Shown here: positions 3 to 2,309 of the stretch, in pieces
How the letters are laid out: each line of letters starts with the position of its first letter
Position numbering within the stretch: the stretch's first letter is position 1
DNA from: an uncultured Synergistaceae bacterium
GTDB taxonomy: Bacteria > Synergistota > Synergistia > Synergistales > Aminobacteriaceae
DNA: 64,000 bases
Direction: 5' to 3'
Assembly (NCBI GenBank): GCA_964439735.1
Contig: CAYTQC010000001.1
Span: 3,718 to 67,717 of the forward strand
Translations under genes and position numbers: made by a program
Notes under the pieces: generated by a model
Seen by the model: only the letters and a program-made list of their open reading frames with translations
Told to the model about the DNA's origin: nothing
The model's database searches: none

Positions 3-926
3 TTTTTGACCCTGATGGATTTTTCAGCGGAGGAAATTTATTACCTTCTGGACCTCTCCGCCGACCTGAAGACAAAAAAACGGGCGGGTATCAGGGGAAC
101 GGCCCTTGCAGGAAAAAACATCGCACTGCTCTTCGAAAAAGCGTCCACGAGGACCCGCTGCGCTTTTACCGTTGCGTGCATTGACGAGGGGGGACACCCG
201 GAATTCCTCGGCAAAAACGATATCCATCTCGGGGGAAAGGAGGACGTCAAGGACACGGCCAGGGTACTCGGACGCATGTTCGACGGTATCCAGTACAGAG
301 GATTCAAGCAGTCCCTGGTGGAGGAACTGGCGGAATACGCCGGAGTTCCCGTCTGGAACGGACTTACGGACGTCGACCATCCGACCCAGATACTTGCCGA
401 CTTCCTGACCCTTCAGGAAAACTTCGGAAGGCTTCTGAAAGGGATACGCCTTGTGTACTGCGGCGACGGAAGAAACAACATGTCCAACGCCCTCATGATC
501 GGATGCGCCAAGTTGGGAATGCATTACACGGTTGCGTCCCCTGAATCCCTTTTCCCTGAAAGGGAGCTGCTGGAAAAATGCAGGGCCATGGCTGCACAGA
601 CCGGCGGAACCATTACCGTTCTGAAAGATCCCTTCGAAGCGGTCAGGGGTGCGGATGCGGTATATACTGATGTCTGGGTCTCCATGGGAGAAGAGGAAAA
701 GAAAAAGGAACGTGAGTCCCTTCTCAGGCCATACCAGGTAAACATGGAGCTTATGAAGGCTTCCGGCAGGGACGGCACCATATTCCTTCACTGCCTTCCG
801 GCAGTTAAGGGGCAGGAAGTCACCGAGGATGTCTTTGAAAGCCCGTTCTCCAAGGTATTTGATGAAGCAGAGAATCGGATGCACACTATAAAGGCAGTCA
901 TGGTGGCGACCATAGGGAACCAGTGA
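3..926 (+). CDS. argF: Ornithine carbamoyltransferase (5' end truncated by window edge; possibly the catabolic ArcB type)
   Basis: FEKASTRTR carbamoyl-phosphate motif, [13 protein letters not shown] and HCLP motifs; frame is open to the window edge (FLTLMDF). Confidence 0.95.
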
Positions 927-956
927 CCGGGTACGAATGAAAAGGAGGTGATCTGC

Positions 957-1142
957 ATGGAAAACGAGCGGCTTTTCCGGTGTGCCTCCTGCGGGAATGA
1001 ATTCCGGCTCAAAGAGGGTGACCGTACGCTTCGCTGTCCTTCATGCGGAGGGAAAACCCTGATACTCCTCGAAGGCGAGAGCCTTTCGAGAAAAAAATGT
1101 GGAGGATGCTCAGGCGGTTCCTGTTCCACCTGAGGCGGTTGA
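957..1142 (+). CDS. Small zinc-ribbon (FmdB-like) Cys-rich protein, probable selenoprotein with UGA at 1131-1133 read as Sec (ends CSTUGG)
   Basis: Strong RBS AGGAGGTG before ATG 957; C9xxC12, C27xxC30, C48xxC51, then C56-S-T-UGA-G-G-UGA. The CDS itself is solid; the Sec extension from 1131 to 1142 is inferred. Confidence 0.7.
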
Positions 1143-1147
1143 TTTTC

Positions 1148-1172
1148 GGGGCAGCCGGGGGCTGCCCCTTTT
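1148..1172 (+). terminator. GC-rich hairpin: intrinsic terminator and candidate SECIS element
   Basis: Perfect 9-bp stem GGGGCAGCC/GGCTGCCCC, GGG loop, then TTTT; lies between convergent genes; loop starts 23 nt after the UGA at 1131. Confidence 0.7.
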
Positions 1173-1173
1173 G

Positions 1174-1584
1174 CTACAGTATGGCCGATACAGAAAGATC
1201 AACGGTCTTTATGCCCCTCACCGAGGAAAGGGCATTCTCAAAACCCTTAATGGTTCCCGCGTCCCCTTTCATTACAATACATTCAAGACAATGAGCGTGA
1301 TCCACATGGACATGGGTCGTGCAGACGATCACGTCTCCGAAATCGTGCTGGAGCGATGTAAGGGCATTTGTGGCGTCCTTCGTGTGGTGATCATACATTA
1401 TCGTTACGGTTCCGAAGACGGTTCCTTCTCCCTGCGCCCACATCTCCCTTGCAAGCCTTTCACGTATTAGCTGCCTTATGGCTTCAGACCTGTTCTGAAG
1501 GCCATTTCCCTGAATAAAAAGATCGAATTCCGAGAGTAGCGAATCCGGTACTGCCACGCCGAAACGAACCAGACGGTCTGTCAT
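1174..1584 (-). CDS. nikR: Nickel-responsive transcriptional regulator NikR
   Basis: N-terminal ribbon-helix-helix (VRFGVAV...NRSEAIRQLIR); YDHH, LQHDF and HVHVDHAHCLE Ni-ligand motifs. Confidence 0.95.
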   Translation of the reverse strand: MTDRLVRFGVAVPDSLLSEFDLFIQGNGLQNRSEAIRQLIRERLAREMWAQGEGTVFGTVTIMYDHHTKDATNALTSLQHDFGDVIVCTTHVHVDHAHCLECIVMKGDAGTIKGFENALSSVRGIKTVDLSVSAIL

Positions 1585-1649: not shown

Positions 1650-2309
1650 TTGTCCTTGTCTGATGTTTTTACCCTGTGGCTCTGCCCGGATTCACGGCAT
1701 AGTCCGGAAAACGAAGAGGAAGCATTCAAAGAAAAAAACGCCCTGTACATACTTCCCCTTGGAACTGACAGTTCCCGGGCCGCACAGGTGTCCATATCGG
1801 GAGGGGGTTTCTCTCTTTGTGCCTGCGGAGATGGTGCTGTAAGGGGCTATGACGACGGCGGCAGCCTCGTCAGCTGTTATTATGGAATGCACGGAAGGGG
1901 AAAGGGGGGTGATTTTGCAGTTTTCCGCCATGGCGGCTTTCTCTGCGGCCTTTCATCGGGAAATGATCTGCTTTTCCCCGAACATTCACGGGTATTGGCT
2001 CTCGCCGGAGCGGATCTCATCTGTATATTCCCCTCCTCTGATGTCGGCCGGGAGTTTCCACTGGAGATATTTGCCCGGGTCAGGGCCATGGAAAACCTCG
2101 TGTATGTTGTTCTTGCAGTACCCGGTTCTTTTCCGCCCCTTGTTTACGGCCCCAGGGGCGAGAGAATCGAGACCGGCAGATGCGGGGAACAGGAAGCCGG
2201 AGAAAAAGAAACCGTCCTCAGCAGGGCGAACCTGCTGAATGTCAGGAAGGTGGTACCACTCTTCAATCTTCGCAAAAAAGAACGCTATCATTCGATCACG
2301 GTCCTGTGA
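1650..2309 (+). CDS. Carbon-nitrogen hydrolase (nitrilase)-fold protein, catalytic triad apparently lost
   Basis: GLSSGNDLLFPEHSRVLALAGADLI and ARVRAMENLVYVV match the nitrilase C-terminal signature; TTG start uncertain (1650 or 1656). Confidence 0.7.
   Translation: MSLSDVFTLWLCPDSRHSPENEEEAFKEKNALYILPLGTDSSRAAQVSISGGGFSLCACGDGAVRGYDDGGSLVSCYYGMHGRGKGGDFAVFRHGGFLCGLSSGNDLLFPEHSRVLALAGADLICIFPSSDVGREFPLEIFARVRAMENLVYVVLAVPGSFPPLVYGPRGERIETGRCGEQEAGEKETVLSRANLLNVRKVVPLFNLRKKERYHSITVL

What the first reader, a model, noticed from the sequence alone, without database searches (positions are those of the whole stretch)
957..1172. Hidden selenoprotein candidate: 61-aa zinc-ribbon protein ending C-S-T-U-G-G
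Seen: the ORF track stops this protein at TGA 1131, but the sequence continues GGC GGT TGA. The protein has three CxxC pairs (C9/C12, C27/C30, C48/C51) and a lone C56, whose pair is completed only if UGA is residue 59 (CxxU). A perfect 9-bp hairpin with a GGG loop starts 14 nt after the UGA, with the loop 23 nt after it. Knowledge: bacterial SECIS elements sit just 3' of the UGA with a G in the apical loop; Synergistota encode Sec machinery and selenoenzymes such as glycine reductase; FmdB-like zinc ribbons have been reported with Sec in some anaerobes. Inference: a Sec-containing redox or metal-sensing micro-protein co-transcribed with ornithine carbamoyltransferase and convergent with nikR, using one hairpin as both SECIS and terminator.
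Basis: partly seen in the sequence, partly recalled or inferred. Interest (0 to 1): 0.85.

Follow-up and report, generated by a model that had tools for sequence, protein, structure and literature searches.

The report
Hidden selenocysteine tail on zinc-ribbon microprotein
A tiny zinc-ribbon protein gene that databases end at a UGA "stop" almost certainly reads that UGA as selenocysteine and adds two more residues, which reveals an unannotated selenoprotein family found across the phylum Synergistota.

Summary
ORF 957-1130 is followed by TGA (1131), GGC GGT, TGA (1140), then a 9-bp hairpin with a GGG loop (1148-1168) and TTTT.

The Sec reading is strongly supported by comparison:
- In 42 homologous loci (17 genera, 7 families of the phylum) the first stop is always TGA.
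- The next codon is GGN, with all four synonymous codons used. The one after encodes G/V/I/A. A second stop (TGA, TAA or TAG) follows, then unconstrained spacer.
- Homologs in lineages without selA carry Cys at that position (…CSTCGIS*).
- All 42 loci have a hairpin with a G[G/U]-containing apical loop 16-26 nt after the UGA. All 9 stem pairs covary.
- selD, fdhA (x2) and grdB (x2) of this same genome have the same C-GGN-G triloop at +17 to +24.
- selA, selB and a Sec-containing selD are present. tRNA-Sec was found only in better-assembled relatives.

No Pfam or NCBIfam model covers the family. RefSeq calls it a 58-aa "RpoP". It is a new selenoprotein family with "U-x-x-stop" architecture, and its SECIS lies in the 3'UTR and here also looks like the terminator. 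Function (metal binding, possibly nickel, or CxxU redox) is inferred only. No experimental proof exists.

The parts
3..926 (+). Ornithine carbamoyltransferase gene (argF/arcB type), 5' end cut by the window. It is the upstream neighbour and probably co-transcribed.
Evidence: ORF. tblastn shows the same gene directly upstream of the zinc-ribbon gene in most homologous loci across the phylum. No family scan of this ORF was run.
943..948 (+). Shine-Dalgarno sequence AGGAGG, 8 nt before ATG 957.
   Evidence: Read directly from the sequence.
957..1142 (+). Proposed full coding sequence: 61 residues (MENERLF…SCSTUGG) plus the terminal TGA at 1140-1142.
   Evidence: Translation with TGA=U. Codon periodicity continues for exactly two codons past TGA 1131 in 42 homologs.
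981..1046 (+). Zinc-ribbon core with ligand pairs C9/C12 and C27/C30.
   Evidence: C9, C12, C27 and C30 are invariant in alignment A1. AlphaFold2 models residues 1-43 as a three-stranded ribbon, with block-mean pLDDT of 81-89 for residues 1-40. Sub-threshold matches to HypA, Zn_ribbon_8 and RpoP models.
1098..1139 (+). Gly/Ser-rich C-terminal tail with C48, C51, C56 and U59, ending G60 G61.
   Evidence: C56 is invariant and C48 nearly so. The tail is modelled as disordered, pLDDT below 50. Cys-form homologs carry Cys-rich tails ending …CSTCGIS, …CSCGCH or …CSCCH.
1131..1133 (+). UGA read as selenocysteine (residue 59).
   Evidence: TGA in 42 of 42 Sec-type loci, against TGA 18, TAG 7 and TAA 6 at the ends of Cys-type homologs. 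It aligns with Cys in homologs from selA-lacking lineages.
1140..1142 (+). True stop codon (TGA).
   Evidence: At this codon position homologs have TGA 24, TAA 11, TAG 6 and CGA 1. The CGA case is followed directly by TGA.
1148..1168 (+). SECIS-like hairpin in the 3'UTR: 9-bp stem and GGG loop at 1157-1159. With TTTT at 1169-1172 it also looks like an intrinsic terminator.
   Evidence: Fold and terminator scan. The loop type and spacing match selD, fdhA x2 and grdB x2 of the same genome. All 9 of 9 stem pairs covary and the first loop G is invariant.
1174..1584 (-). nikR (nickel-responsive regulator), convergent. Its stop lies 5 nt beyond the hairpin.
   Evidence: NikR_C 99.9 bits, NF003381 134.5 bits. 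It is convergent next to the zinc-ribbon gene in 41 of 42 Sec-type loci and in 2 of 3 metagenome loci.

Best explanation
Window 957-1142 encodes a 61-residue selenoprotein, not a 58-residue protein.

Proposed mechanism: the gene is translated from ATG 957, probably on a transcript shared with the upstream ornithine carbamoyltransferase gene. When the ribosome places UGA 1131 in its A site, the hairpin at 1148-1168 starts 14 nt downstream, just outside the ribosome. SelB carrying Sec-tRNA(Sec) binds the hairpin's G-rich apical loop and delivers selenocysteine as residue 59. Two glycines are then added and translation ends at UGA 1140. In this genus the same hairpin followed by UUUU also ends the transcript.

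Product: a Cys4 zinc-ribbon core (C9, C12, C27, C30) carrying a flexible Gly/Ser tail with C48, C51, C56 and U59. The tail therefore ends C-S-T-U-G-G-COOH.

What is shown by comparison: the conserved UGA, the coding constraint beyond it, the Cys/Sec alternation, the SECIS match and the presence of Sec machinery.

What is inferred only: that SelB binds this hairpin, the efficiency of insertion, and the function. My preferred function is a metal-binding tail, possibly for nickel, given the conserved convergent nikR and the HypA-like ribbon. A CxxU selenenylsulfide redox centre is nearly as likely.
For: 1. In 42 homologous loci from 17 genera and 7 families the first stop is always TGA. The second stop is TGA 24, TAA 11, TAG 6.
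2. Three-base periodicity continues past the UGA. Codon +1 is GGC 13, GGA 12, GGG 8, GGT 6 (plus AGC 2, GCA 1). Entropy is 0.28 and 0.16 bits at its first two positions and 1.91 at the third. Codon +2 encodes G/V/I/A (plus one S and one F). After the second stop, entropy is about 1.9 bits at every position and the spacer length varies.
3. Cys/Sec pair: homologs end …TCSTCGIS* and …TCSICGIN* in family f12, where selA was found in 0 of 4 genomes. The Cys forms in genus g7 also lack selA (0 of 2). All 42 genomes with the UGA form have selA.
4. All 42 loci have a hairpin whose apical loop starts 16-26 nt after the UGA. In 38 it is a G[G/T]N triloop. The other four have GGTC, AGTT or CGTGT loops. 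Stems differ completely between families. All 9 pairs show compensatory changes, 97% of cells are paired, and the first loop G is invariant.
5. Confirmed selenoprotein genes of this same genome (selD, two fdhA, two grdB) have 7-bp hairpins with GGC, GGG or GGT triloops starting 17-24 nt after their UGA. The candidate has GGG at 23. Such hairpins are rare genome-wide: 16 of 8,370 ORF ends.
6. selA (557 bits), selB (376 bits) and a selD with its own in-frame TGA are present. tRNA-Sec scores 73-77 bits in three better-assembled relatives that carry the UGA form.
7. Three further metagenome members, two of them in different gene contexts, show the same UGA + G-x + stop + hairpin pattern. One variant ends UGLGH*.
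8. A bacterial SECIS placed in the 3'UTR just after a near-terminal UGA is known to work: mammalian TrxR expressed in E. coli. The published UGA-to-loop distance is 16-37 nt (PMC10778597).
Against: - There is no experimental evidence: no selenium labelling, mass spectrometry or ribosome profiling.
- tRNA-Sec was not found in this fragmented assembly. The best hit, 45 bits, is a tRNA-Ser, and only 24 tRNAs were recovered.
- A hairpin is expected after the last gene of an operon anyway, and several Cys-form homologs also have one. Hairpin presence alone therefore does not discriminate.
- The hairpins used for the covariation count were picked by a hairpin search, so the high pairing percentage is partly built in.
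- Related genomes are not independent samples.
- Rfam SECIS models do not hit the site. They also miss selD and score fdhA and one grdB below threshold in this genome.
- The functional link to nickel is weak. Many Cys-form genomes have nikR elsewhere or not at all, and nikR is common in a genus that lacks the protein.
Confidence: 0.87

Rival explanations
1. UGA 1131 is an ordinary stop. The protein has 58 residues, as annotated in public databases, and the hairpin is only the intrinsic terminator of the argF operon.
For: - Gene callers and RefSeq end the protein at 58 aa.
- The hairpin plus T-run fits a terminator consensus.
- TGA is also the commonest ordinary stop in these genomes: 18 of 31 Cys-form homologs end in TGA.
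Against: This reading does not explain several results.
- The first stop is TGA in 42 of 42 loci while the second stop varies.
- A Gly codon with free third position and a G/V/I/A codon are conserved after a stop.
- A second in-frame stop sits exactly two codons later in 41 of 42 loci.
- Cys occupies that position in homologs from selA-less lineages.
- The loop G[G/U] is conserved over unrelated stems.
- About a third of homologs keep the hairpin without an adjacent U-run.
Confidence: 0.04
2. Both products are made. Most ribosomes terminate at UGA 1131 and give a stable 58-residue protein without the Sec. A selenium-dependent fraction inserts Sec and gives the 61-residue form. The ratio of isoforms would then report or depend on selenium supply.
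For: - From general knowledge of E. coli, SelB competes with release factor 2 at UGA, so insertion is usually incomplete.
- Here the truncated product lacks only three residues and should fold normally. The ribbon core is predicted with confidence and the tail is disordered.
Against: Selection has kept the post-UGA codons and the SECIS in 42 loci, so the long form matters. Nothing here measures the ratio. This is a refinement of the main explanation rather than a true alternative.
Confidence: 0.35
3. UGA 1131 is read through without selenium, by a near-cognate tRNA (Trp or Cys) or by programmed read-through stimulated by the hairpin.
For: A stable hairpin shortly after a stop codon can stimulate read-through in some systems (general knowledge). 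The extension is short.
Against: - The hairpin's loop type and spacing are those of this genome's own Sec codons.
- The UGA form was found only in genomes with selA (42 of 42). Lineages without selA have a Cys codon instead.
- Non-Sec read-through would not need UGA in particular.
Confidence: 0.02
4. Rival on function. The C-terminal C56-x-x-U59 is a redox centre (thiol/selenol to selenenylsulfide) on a flexible arm, as in thioredoxin reductase or GrdA. It is not a metal-binding site.
For: - CxxU is a recurrent redox motif in selenoproteins (PMC13188914).
- Short forms keep only one Cys plus Sec: CPSUGI, CAPSGUGI.
- The protein persists in genomes where nikR was not found (g11, g13, g20).
Against: - The Cys-to-Sec spacing varies (CxxU, Cx3U, Cx4U), which is unusual for a fixed redox motif.
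- Cys-form tails are Cys/His-rich (CSCGCH, CSCCH) and look like metal sites.
- nikR sits convergent next to 41 of 42 Sec-type genes, even where the upstream neighbour differs.
Confidence: 0.35

Closest known systems
UXX-star selenoprotein families 1 and 2 (NF041114, NF041211; Haft & Tolstoy 2025, as listed in PMC13188914)
   Same: Sec is the third residue from the C-terminus, so the SECIS must lie beyond the stop codon. The review suggests the terminal Sec may act as a metal ligand.
   Different: Those families are glutaredoxin-like folds. This protein is a Cys4 zinc ribbon. NF041211 does not hit this locus, and no NCBIfam selenoprotein model scores above E = 0.002 on 11 representatives.
FmdB-family selenoprotein candidates from the GOS ocean metagenome (TIGR02605; Zhang & Gladyshev 2008, PMC2398784)
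   Same: A small zinc-ribbon protein with predicted Sec, a CxxU-type motif and many Cys homologs.
   Different: - Only 2 reads supported them, and the Sec lies in the ribbon's own U/CxxU motif.
- Here Sec is in the C-terminal tail.
- Here the CxxC pairs are 14 residues apart rather than 17.
- The TIGR02605 score is 13.7-25.2 bits against a cut-off of 31.3.
Mammalian thioredoxin reductase C-terminus (Gly-Cys-Sec-Gly) and its expression in E. coli with a SECIS placed after the stop codon
   Same: A Cys and a Sec sit on a flexible C-terminal tail. The UGA lies one to two codons before the stop. A bacterial-type SECIS works from the untranslated region (PMC10778597).
   Different: That bacterial arrangement is engineered, whereas this one is natural. 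TrxR is a large flavoenzyme and this is a 61-residue ribbon. The Cys-Sec spacing differs (CU versus CxxU).
HypA zinc-ribbon domain (PF01155) and the Cys-rich nickel sites of hydrogenase maturation proteins
   Same: Best Pfam match: 26.3 bits, to the zinc domain at positions 69-106 of 112. HypA structures appear among the fold matches. The gene sits next to nikR. One public record even names a homolog HypA.
   Different: - The score is below the cut-off of 28.9.
- The N-terminal MHE nickel site and the rest of HypA are absent.
- Fold matches are generic zinc ribbons (MCM, RpoP, rubredoxin), all with E above 0.04.
Small ribbon-type selenoproteins from deep-Sep: 'hypothetical protein DW' (NF041197, dual CXXC) and 'DG' (NF049953)
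   Same: Small or ribbon-containing predicted selenoproteins with CxxC motifs.
   Different: Only the CxxC knuckle matches. NF041197 scores 11.9-14.6 bits against a cut-off of 40. NF049953 scores 13.5-17.9 bits against 130. The Sec motifs and positions differ.

Membership tests
Bacterial selenoprotein gene (SelB/SECIS-dependent UGA decoding) | In-frame UGA conserved among orthologs, with coding constraint continuing beyond it | tested here: met
   TGA in 42 of 42 loci. Codon +1 is GGN with all four synonymous codons. The second stop is conserved in position but varies in identity.
Bacterial selenoprotein gene (SelB/SECIS-dependent UGA decoding) | Homologs with Cys aligned to the UGA position | tested here: met
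   …TCSTCGIS* and …TCSICGIN* against …SCSTUGI/V/G*. The last Cys of the other Cys-form tails falls in the same alignment column.
Bacterial selenoprotein gene (SelB/SECIS-dependent UGA decoding) | Stem-loop with G in the apical loop, 16-37 nt between UGA and loop | tested here: met
   Window: a GGG loop 23 nt after the UGA. In 42 of 42 homologs the loop starts at +16 to +26. Same type as the SECIS of this genome's selD, fdhA and grdB. 9 of 9 pairs covary. Distance rule taken from PMC10778597.
Bacterial selenoprotein gene (SelB/SECIS-dependent UGA decoding) | selA, selB, selC and selD in the genome | tested here: inconclusive
   selA, selB and selD (itself with an in-frame TGA) are present. selC (tRNA-Sec) was not recovered in this 308-contig assembly. 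It is present at 73-77 bits in three relatives with the UGA form.
Bacterial selenoprotein gene (SelB/SECIS-dependent UGA decoding) | Selenium demonstrably incorporated in the protein | not testable with these tools
   Needs 75Se labelling or mass spectrometry.
FmdB family zinc ribbon (TIGR02605 / PF09723) | Score above the curated cut-off; two CxxC motifs separated by 17 residues near the N-terminus | tested here: not met
   TIGR02605 scores 18.9 bits for the window protein and 13.7-25.2 bits for 10 relatives, against a cut-off of 31.3. PF09723 scores 20.9 against 34.4. The spacing here is 14 residues.
FmdB family zinc ribbon (TIGR02605 / PF09723) | Low-complexity, often Cys/Gly-rich C-terminal tail | tested here: met
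   Tails such as CGGCSGGSCSTUGG and CGGNCGGCSCGCH. That such tails are typical of the family is from memory of the TIGR02605 description.
HypA nickel metallochaperone (PF01155 / TIGR00100) | Score above cut-off; N-terminal Met-His-Glu nickel site plus zinc domain | tested here: not met
   PF01155 scores 26.3 against 28.9. TIGR00100 scores 19.3 against 88.1. Only the zinc domain matches. The N-terminus is MENER.
RNA polymerase subunit RpoP/RPC12 (the name given in RefSeq and IMG) | Score above cut-off; archaeal or eukaryotic RNA polymerase context | tested here: not met
   NF001607 scores 30.8 against 89. The organism is a bacterium, and bacteria have no RpoP subunit (general knowledge).
[quoted passage not shown] | HMM match (glutaredoxin-like fold) with Sec third from the end | tested here: not met
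   In this genome NF041211 hits only another contig (C253, 33 bits, no stop inside), not this locus. Only the U-x-x-stop architecture is shared.

The most novel reading that the evidence does not exclude
The Sec-tailed zinc ribbon is a dedicated nickel-handling microprotein (chaperone, buffer or co-sensor) working with the adjacent NikR, with selenocysteine as a nickel ligand. Its 3'UTR hairpin, which serves as both SECIS and terminator, would link the amount of the active 61-residue form to selenium supply. That would connect selenium and nickel homeostasis in an anaerobic phylum.
Probability: 0.15. Interest if true: 0.8.

Novelty: new member of a known kind. Interest (0 to 1): 0.62.

Why it matters
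- **A missed family.** It adds a well-supported, previously unannotated selenoprotein family. The family occurs in 7 families of Synergistota and is recorded in RefSeq, IMG and GenBank as a 58-residue "RpoP", "HypA" or hypothetical protein. Neither NCBI's selenoprotein models nor a dedicated predictor flagged it. That predictor reported no new selenoproteins in two Synergistota genomes, though whether those two genomes carry the UGA form was not checked.
- **A natural 3'UTR SECIS.** The bacterial SECIS lies wholly in the 3'UTR, two codons from the stop, and in this genus it also looks like the transcription terminator. This arrangement has otherwise mostly been used by protein engineers.
- **A tractable test system.** The protein is small, and natural Cys and Sec versions exist. 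It is suited to asking what a C-terminal selenol adds to a Cys-rich metal or redox tail.
- **Annotation.** Gene finders and selenoproteome counts for this phylum should be corrected.

Tried and rejected
- **Rfam scan of 800-1400 (E up to 10).** No SECIS family hit. A control showed this is uninformative. Rfam's bacterial SECIS models are gene-specific: only one grdB passes its threshold, the fdhA sites and the other grdB score below threshold, and selD is missed.
- **tRNA-Sec in the own assembly.** Not found. The best Rfam hits are tRNA-Ser and tRNA-Leu. I attribute this to the fragmented assembly and checked relatives instead.
- **Membership in known families.** UXX-star family 2, FmdB, HypA, RpoP and the DW and DG ribbon selenoproteins were all tested and rejected on score. 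NF041210 was tried on a guess and turned out to be an unrelated histidine kinase.
- **The search for related loci with the 58-sequence alignment.** Spread outside the phylum was therefore not surveyed in whole genomes. A profile search of 1.8 billion proteins gave about 30 small family members among many unrelated multi-zinc-finger proteins.
- **Fold search of the AlphaFold2 model.** Only generic zinc ribbons, all with E above 0.04. No functional lead.
- **nikR as an obligate partner.** Rejected as obligate. Cys-form genera have nikR elsewhere, or it was not found, and a genus without the protein has nikR.
- **Bidirectional terminator.** Rejected. On the minus strand the hairpin is followed by GAAAATCA, not a U-run.
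- **Not available.** The Haft 2023 and 2025 papers are not in the held library. PF22910, listed as a precomputed hit for two homologs, did not appear in my Pfam scans, so its identity stays unresolved.
Full report
**1. The observation**

- AGGAGG (943-948) precedes ATG 957.
- The frame gives MENERLFRCASCGNEFRLKEGDRTLRCPSCGGKTLILLEGESLSRKKCGGCSGGSCST. It then reads TGA (1131-1133), GGC GGT, and TGA (1140-1142).
- Cysteines lie at positions 9/12, 27/30, 48/51 and 56.
- A perfect 9-bp hairpin GGGGCAGCC-GGG-GGCTGCCCC occupies 1148-1168. Its stem starts 14 nt and its loop 23 nt after the UGA. TTTT follows.
- Upstream is a partial ornithine carbamoyltransferase gene. Downstream, convergent, is nikR (1174-1584; NikR_C 99.9 bits, NF003381 134.5 bits).

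**2. Sec machinery**

The window lies on contig C1 of a 2.18-Mb, 308-contig assembly that is 92.6% complete. Public homologs name the genus Aminivibrio.
- selA (557 bits) and selB (376 bits) are adjacent on C3.
- selD on C67 has its own in-frame TGA.
- tRNA-Sec was not recovered. ARAGORN finds only 24 tRNAs in the assembly, and the best Rfam hits are tRNA-Ser and tRNA-Leu.
- Three better-assembled relatives that carry the same gene form have a tRNA-Sec at 73-77 bits, against a cut-off of 47.

**3. Homologs: the decisive comparison**

Searches that read through stop codons found homologs in 135 of 268 genomes of the phylum at E <= 1e-7. I extracted 73 loci.

Forty-two loci, from 17 genera in 7 families, have the "UGA form". 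Examples are …SCSTUGG*, …SCSTUGV*, …CSSGUGV*, …GCAPSGUGI*, …CPSUGI* and …CGTUGS*. In all 42 the first stop is TGA. The codon two positions further on is a stop in 41 (TGA 24, TAA 11, TAG 6). The one exception has CGA followed directly by TGA.

| Position after the UGA | Content | Entropy (bits) |
|---|---|---|
| Codon +1 | GGC 13, GGA 12, GGG 8, GGT 6, AGC 2, GCA 1 | 0.28, 0.16, 1.91 |
| Codon +2 | encodes G, V, I or A (one S, one F) | third position 1.78 |
| Codon +3 | stop | - |
| Next five positions | unconstrained; spacer length to the hairpin varies | 1.86-1.94 each |

This is the signature of translation continuing for exactly two codons past the UGA.

The other 31 loci are Cys forms whose stops are TGA 18, TAG 7 and TAA 6. 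The most telling are from family f12: …TCSTCGIS* and …TCSICGIN*. These carry the same motif with Cys in place of U. In MAFFT alignment A1 the U column holds the last Cys of most Cys-form tails, such as …CSCGCH, …CSCCH and …GCSH. In the short UGA forms such as …GCAPSGUGI, MAFFT places the U in the C56 column instead.

**4. Link to the Sec trait**

A selA scan of the same 268 genomes found selA in all 42 genomes with the UGA form. It found none in f12 (0 of 4) or genus g7 (0 of 2), and both carry Cys forms. selA is common in the phylum (210 of 268), so this is a consistency check rather than strong statistics. The direction is nevertheless what the Sec reading predicts.

**5. The hairpin as SECIS**

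All 42 UGA-form loci have a hairpin whose loop begins 16-26 nt after the UGA.
- In 38 the loop is a G[G/T]N triloop.
- The other four have GGTC, AGTT (twice) or CGTGT.
- Stems range from GGGGCAGCC/GGCTGCCCC to GCTGAGATC/GATCTCAGC and TCCCATC/GATGGGA.
- On 24 distinct hairpins, all 9 stem pairs show changes on both sides. Of the cells, 97% are paired, against 72% in shuffles and 37-57% when the 3' partners are slid by 1-3 columns. The first loop base is an invariant G.
- The hairpins were chosen by a hairpin search, so the pairing level is partly built in. The invariant loop G, the spacing and the compensatory changes are not.

The strongest single control is internal. The Sec codons of this genome's own selD, two fdhA and two grdB genes are each followed by a 7-bp hairpin with a GGC, GGG or GGT triloop closed by C-G, starting 17-24 nt after the UGA. 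The candidate has C-GGG-G at +23.

Genome-wide, only 16 of 8,370 stop-to-stop ORFs of 100 or more codons have such a hairpin. Twelve of these follow TGA, and four of the twelve are the fdhA and grdB sites. In the window itself, the only other sites of this kind fall in spurious frames.

By my reading of the 10 nt after each stem, roughly a third of the homologs, for example L029, L030, L056, L076, L082, L084, L086 and L088, lack a U-run right after it. The hairpin is therefore conserved for something other than termination. Cys-form homologs have hairpins at variable distances with unrelated loops, or none.

Rfam's SECIS models did not hit the site. They are gene-specific and also fail on most confirmed sites of this genome.

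**6. Further members**

A profile search of 1.8 billion representative proteins returned about 30 small family members, among many unrelated multi-zinc-finger proteins. Many of these end …CAPSG, …CSSG, …CGT or …CSG. That is, gene callers cut them exactly before the UGA.

| Locus | Ending | Loop and position | Context |
|---|---|---|---|
| L111 | GCASSG-UGA-GGG-ATC-TGA | CGTGT at +18 | no argF or nikR nearby |
| L113 | GCAPSG-UGA-GGA-ATC-TGA | GTG at +24 | nikR convergent; different upstream genes |
| L115 | U-G-L-G-H-stop (a four-residue extension) | GGT at +23 | nikR convergent |

These three were looked up on their contigs.

**7. What the protein is**

- No Pfam or NCBIfam model reaches its cut-off on the window protein or on ten diverse relatives.
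- The best matches cover the zinc-ribbon part only: HypA (26.3 against 28.9), RpoP (30.8 against 89) and FmdB (13.7-25.2 against 31.3).
- AlphaFold2 with the 58-sequence alignment gives a confident three-stranded ribbon for residues 1-43 and a disordered tail for 47-61.
- Fold matches are generic zinc ribbons.
- Public records call the 58-residue form "hypothetical protein", "DNA-directed RNA polymerase subunit RPC12/RpoP" (including RefSeq WP_133958968.1 of Aminivibrio pyruvatiphilus) or "HypA". None reads the UGA.

**8. Mechanism and function**

The mechanism I commit to is standard bacterial Sec decoding. SelB with Sec-tRNA(Sec) binds the 3'UTR hairpin while the ribosome holds UGA 1131 in the A site. 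Sec, Gly and Gly are added, and release occurs at UGA 1140.

The geometry fits the published 16-37 nt window. It also resembles the engineered expression of thioredoxin reductase in E. coli, where a SECIS is placed after the stop (PMC10778597).

In this genus the hairpin plus UUUU should also terminate the transcript. On the opposite strand it is followed by GAAAATCA, so it is not nikR's terminator. Because the UGA-terminated product lacks only three residues, a mixture of 58- and 61-residue forms is likely.

Function is inferred.
- **For a metal (nickel?) role:** the tail offers C48, C51, C56 and U59. Short forms keep only one Cys plus Sec, with spacing CxxU to Cx4U. Cys forms end in Cys/His-rich strings. 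nikR sits convergent beside 41 of 42 UGA-form genes, and in L113 it does so even though argF is not the neighbour.
- **Against an obligate nickel link:** many Cys-form genera have nikR elsewhere. In g11, g13 and g20 nikR was not found. The ribbon-less genus g16 has nikR.
- **My estimate:** a metal-binding tail at roughly 45%, a CxxU redox arm at roughly 35%, and something else for the remainder.
- The conserved position directly after ornithine carbamoyltransferase across the phylum is unexplained.

**9. Comparison with what is known, and novelty**

- Selenoproteins with Sec third from the end ("UXX-star" families 1 and 2) are described, but they are glutaredoxin-like (PMC13188914). NF041211 does not hit this locus.
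- FmdB-family selenoprotein candidates were reported from two ocean metagenome reads, with Sec in the ribbon's own motif (PMC2398784).
- The May 2026 list of prokaryotic selenoprotein families contains no zinc ribbon with a C-terminal Sec tail.
- A dedicated predictor reported no new selenoproteins in two Synergistota genomes (PMC12013277). I did not check whether those two genomes carry the UGA form.
- The two Haft papers are not in the held library, so I cannot fully exclude a mention there. NCBIfam release 20, which carries that group's models, has no matching model.

I therefore rate this a new member of a known kind: a new selenoprotein family that uses the known decoding mechanism.

**10. 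Verdict**

My confidence that UGA 1131 encodes selenocysteine is about 0.87. What is missing is experimental proof and a tested function.

Noticed in passing
Own genome outside the window: C24 (- strand, oriented position ~8899), C160 (+ 3062), C9 (+ 6414), C263, C134, C236, C26: Further TGA codons at the ends of long open frames are followed by the same SECIS-like hairpin (7 or more bp, G[G/T]N triloop at +16 to +26). Some continue with U-G-C-G or U-A-G-C. They may be additional selenoprotein genes, known or not.
   Followed up: no
Own genome C67:1540-2472 (L014): selD carries an in-frame TGA (…TTSGUAAKIG…) followed by a GGC-triloop hairpin at +17, so selenophosphate synthetase is itself a selenoprotein here.
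   Followed up: partly
L022 (G022:C24), positions about 1675-1690: In one Aminivibrio-like genome the second stop has become CGA and is followed directly by another TGA. The tail is therefore U-G-G-R. This is the only 3-residue extension among the 42 genome loci.
   Followed up: partly
L115 (ENA metagenome contig), 77-253: A variant member ends U-G-L-G-H-stop. The four-residue extension ends in His, reminiscent of the …CGCH ends of the Cys forms. The hairpin still has its loop 23 nt after the UGA.
   Followed up: partly
L113/L114 (GCA_054922355.1 contig), 1501-2150: The zinc-ribbon gene keeps its convergent nikR neighbour although its upstream neighbours differ: an arginine deiminase gene and an unknown gene on the other strand, instead of argF.
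   Followed up: partly
Public records of homologs (e.g. WP_133958968.1, NLK19174.1): The family is named 'DNA-directed RNA polymerase subunit RPC12/RpoP' or 'HypA' in public databases. Both names rest on sub-threshold zinc-ribbon similarity and are likely misannotations.
   Followed up: yes
Own genome C2:2529-2663 (- strand), with similar hits in most relatives: A second, more distant small zinc-ribbon paralog is present in most genomes of the family (E about 1e-6 to the query, residues 6-50, no stop inside).
   Followed up: no
window 1650-2309 (+): The ORF after nikR matches the carbon-nitrogen hydrolase family only weakly and in part (26.8 bits, profile positions 117-207 of 256). It is conserved next to nikR in relatives at only 35-45% identity, much lower than its neighbours, so it may be a fast-evolving or degenerate nitrilase-like gene.
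   Followed up: no
window 406-408 (+), inside the argF gene in another frame: A TGA followed by a 7-bp GGC-triloop hairpin at +21 lies in an alternative frame of argF (ORF 106-408). I judge it a chance match to the SECIS pattern. It shows that the pattern alone is not proof.
   Followed up: partly
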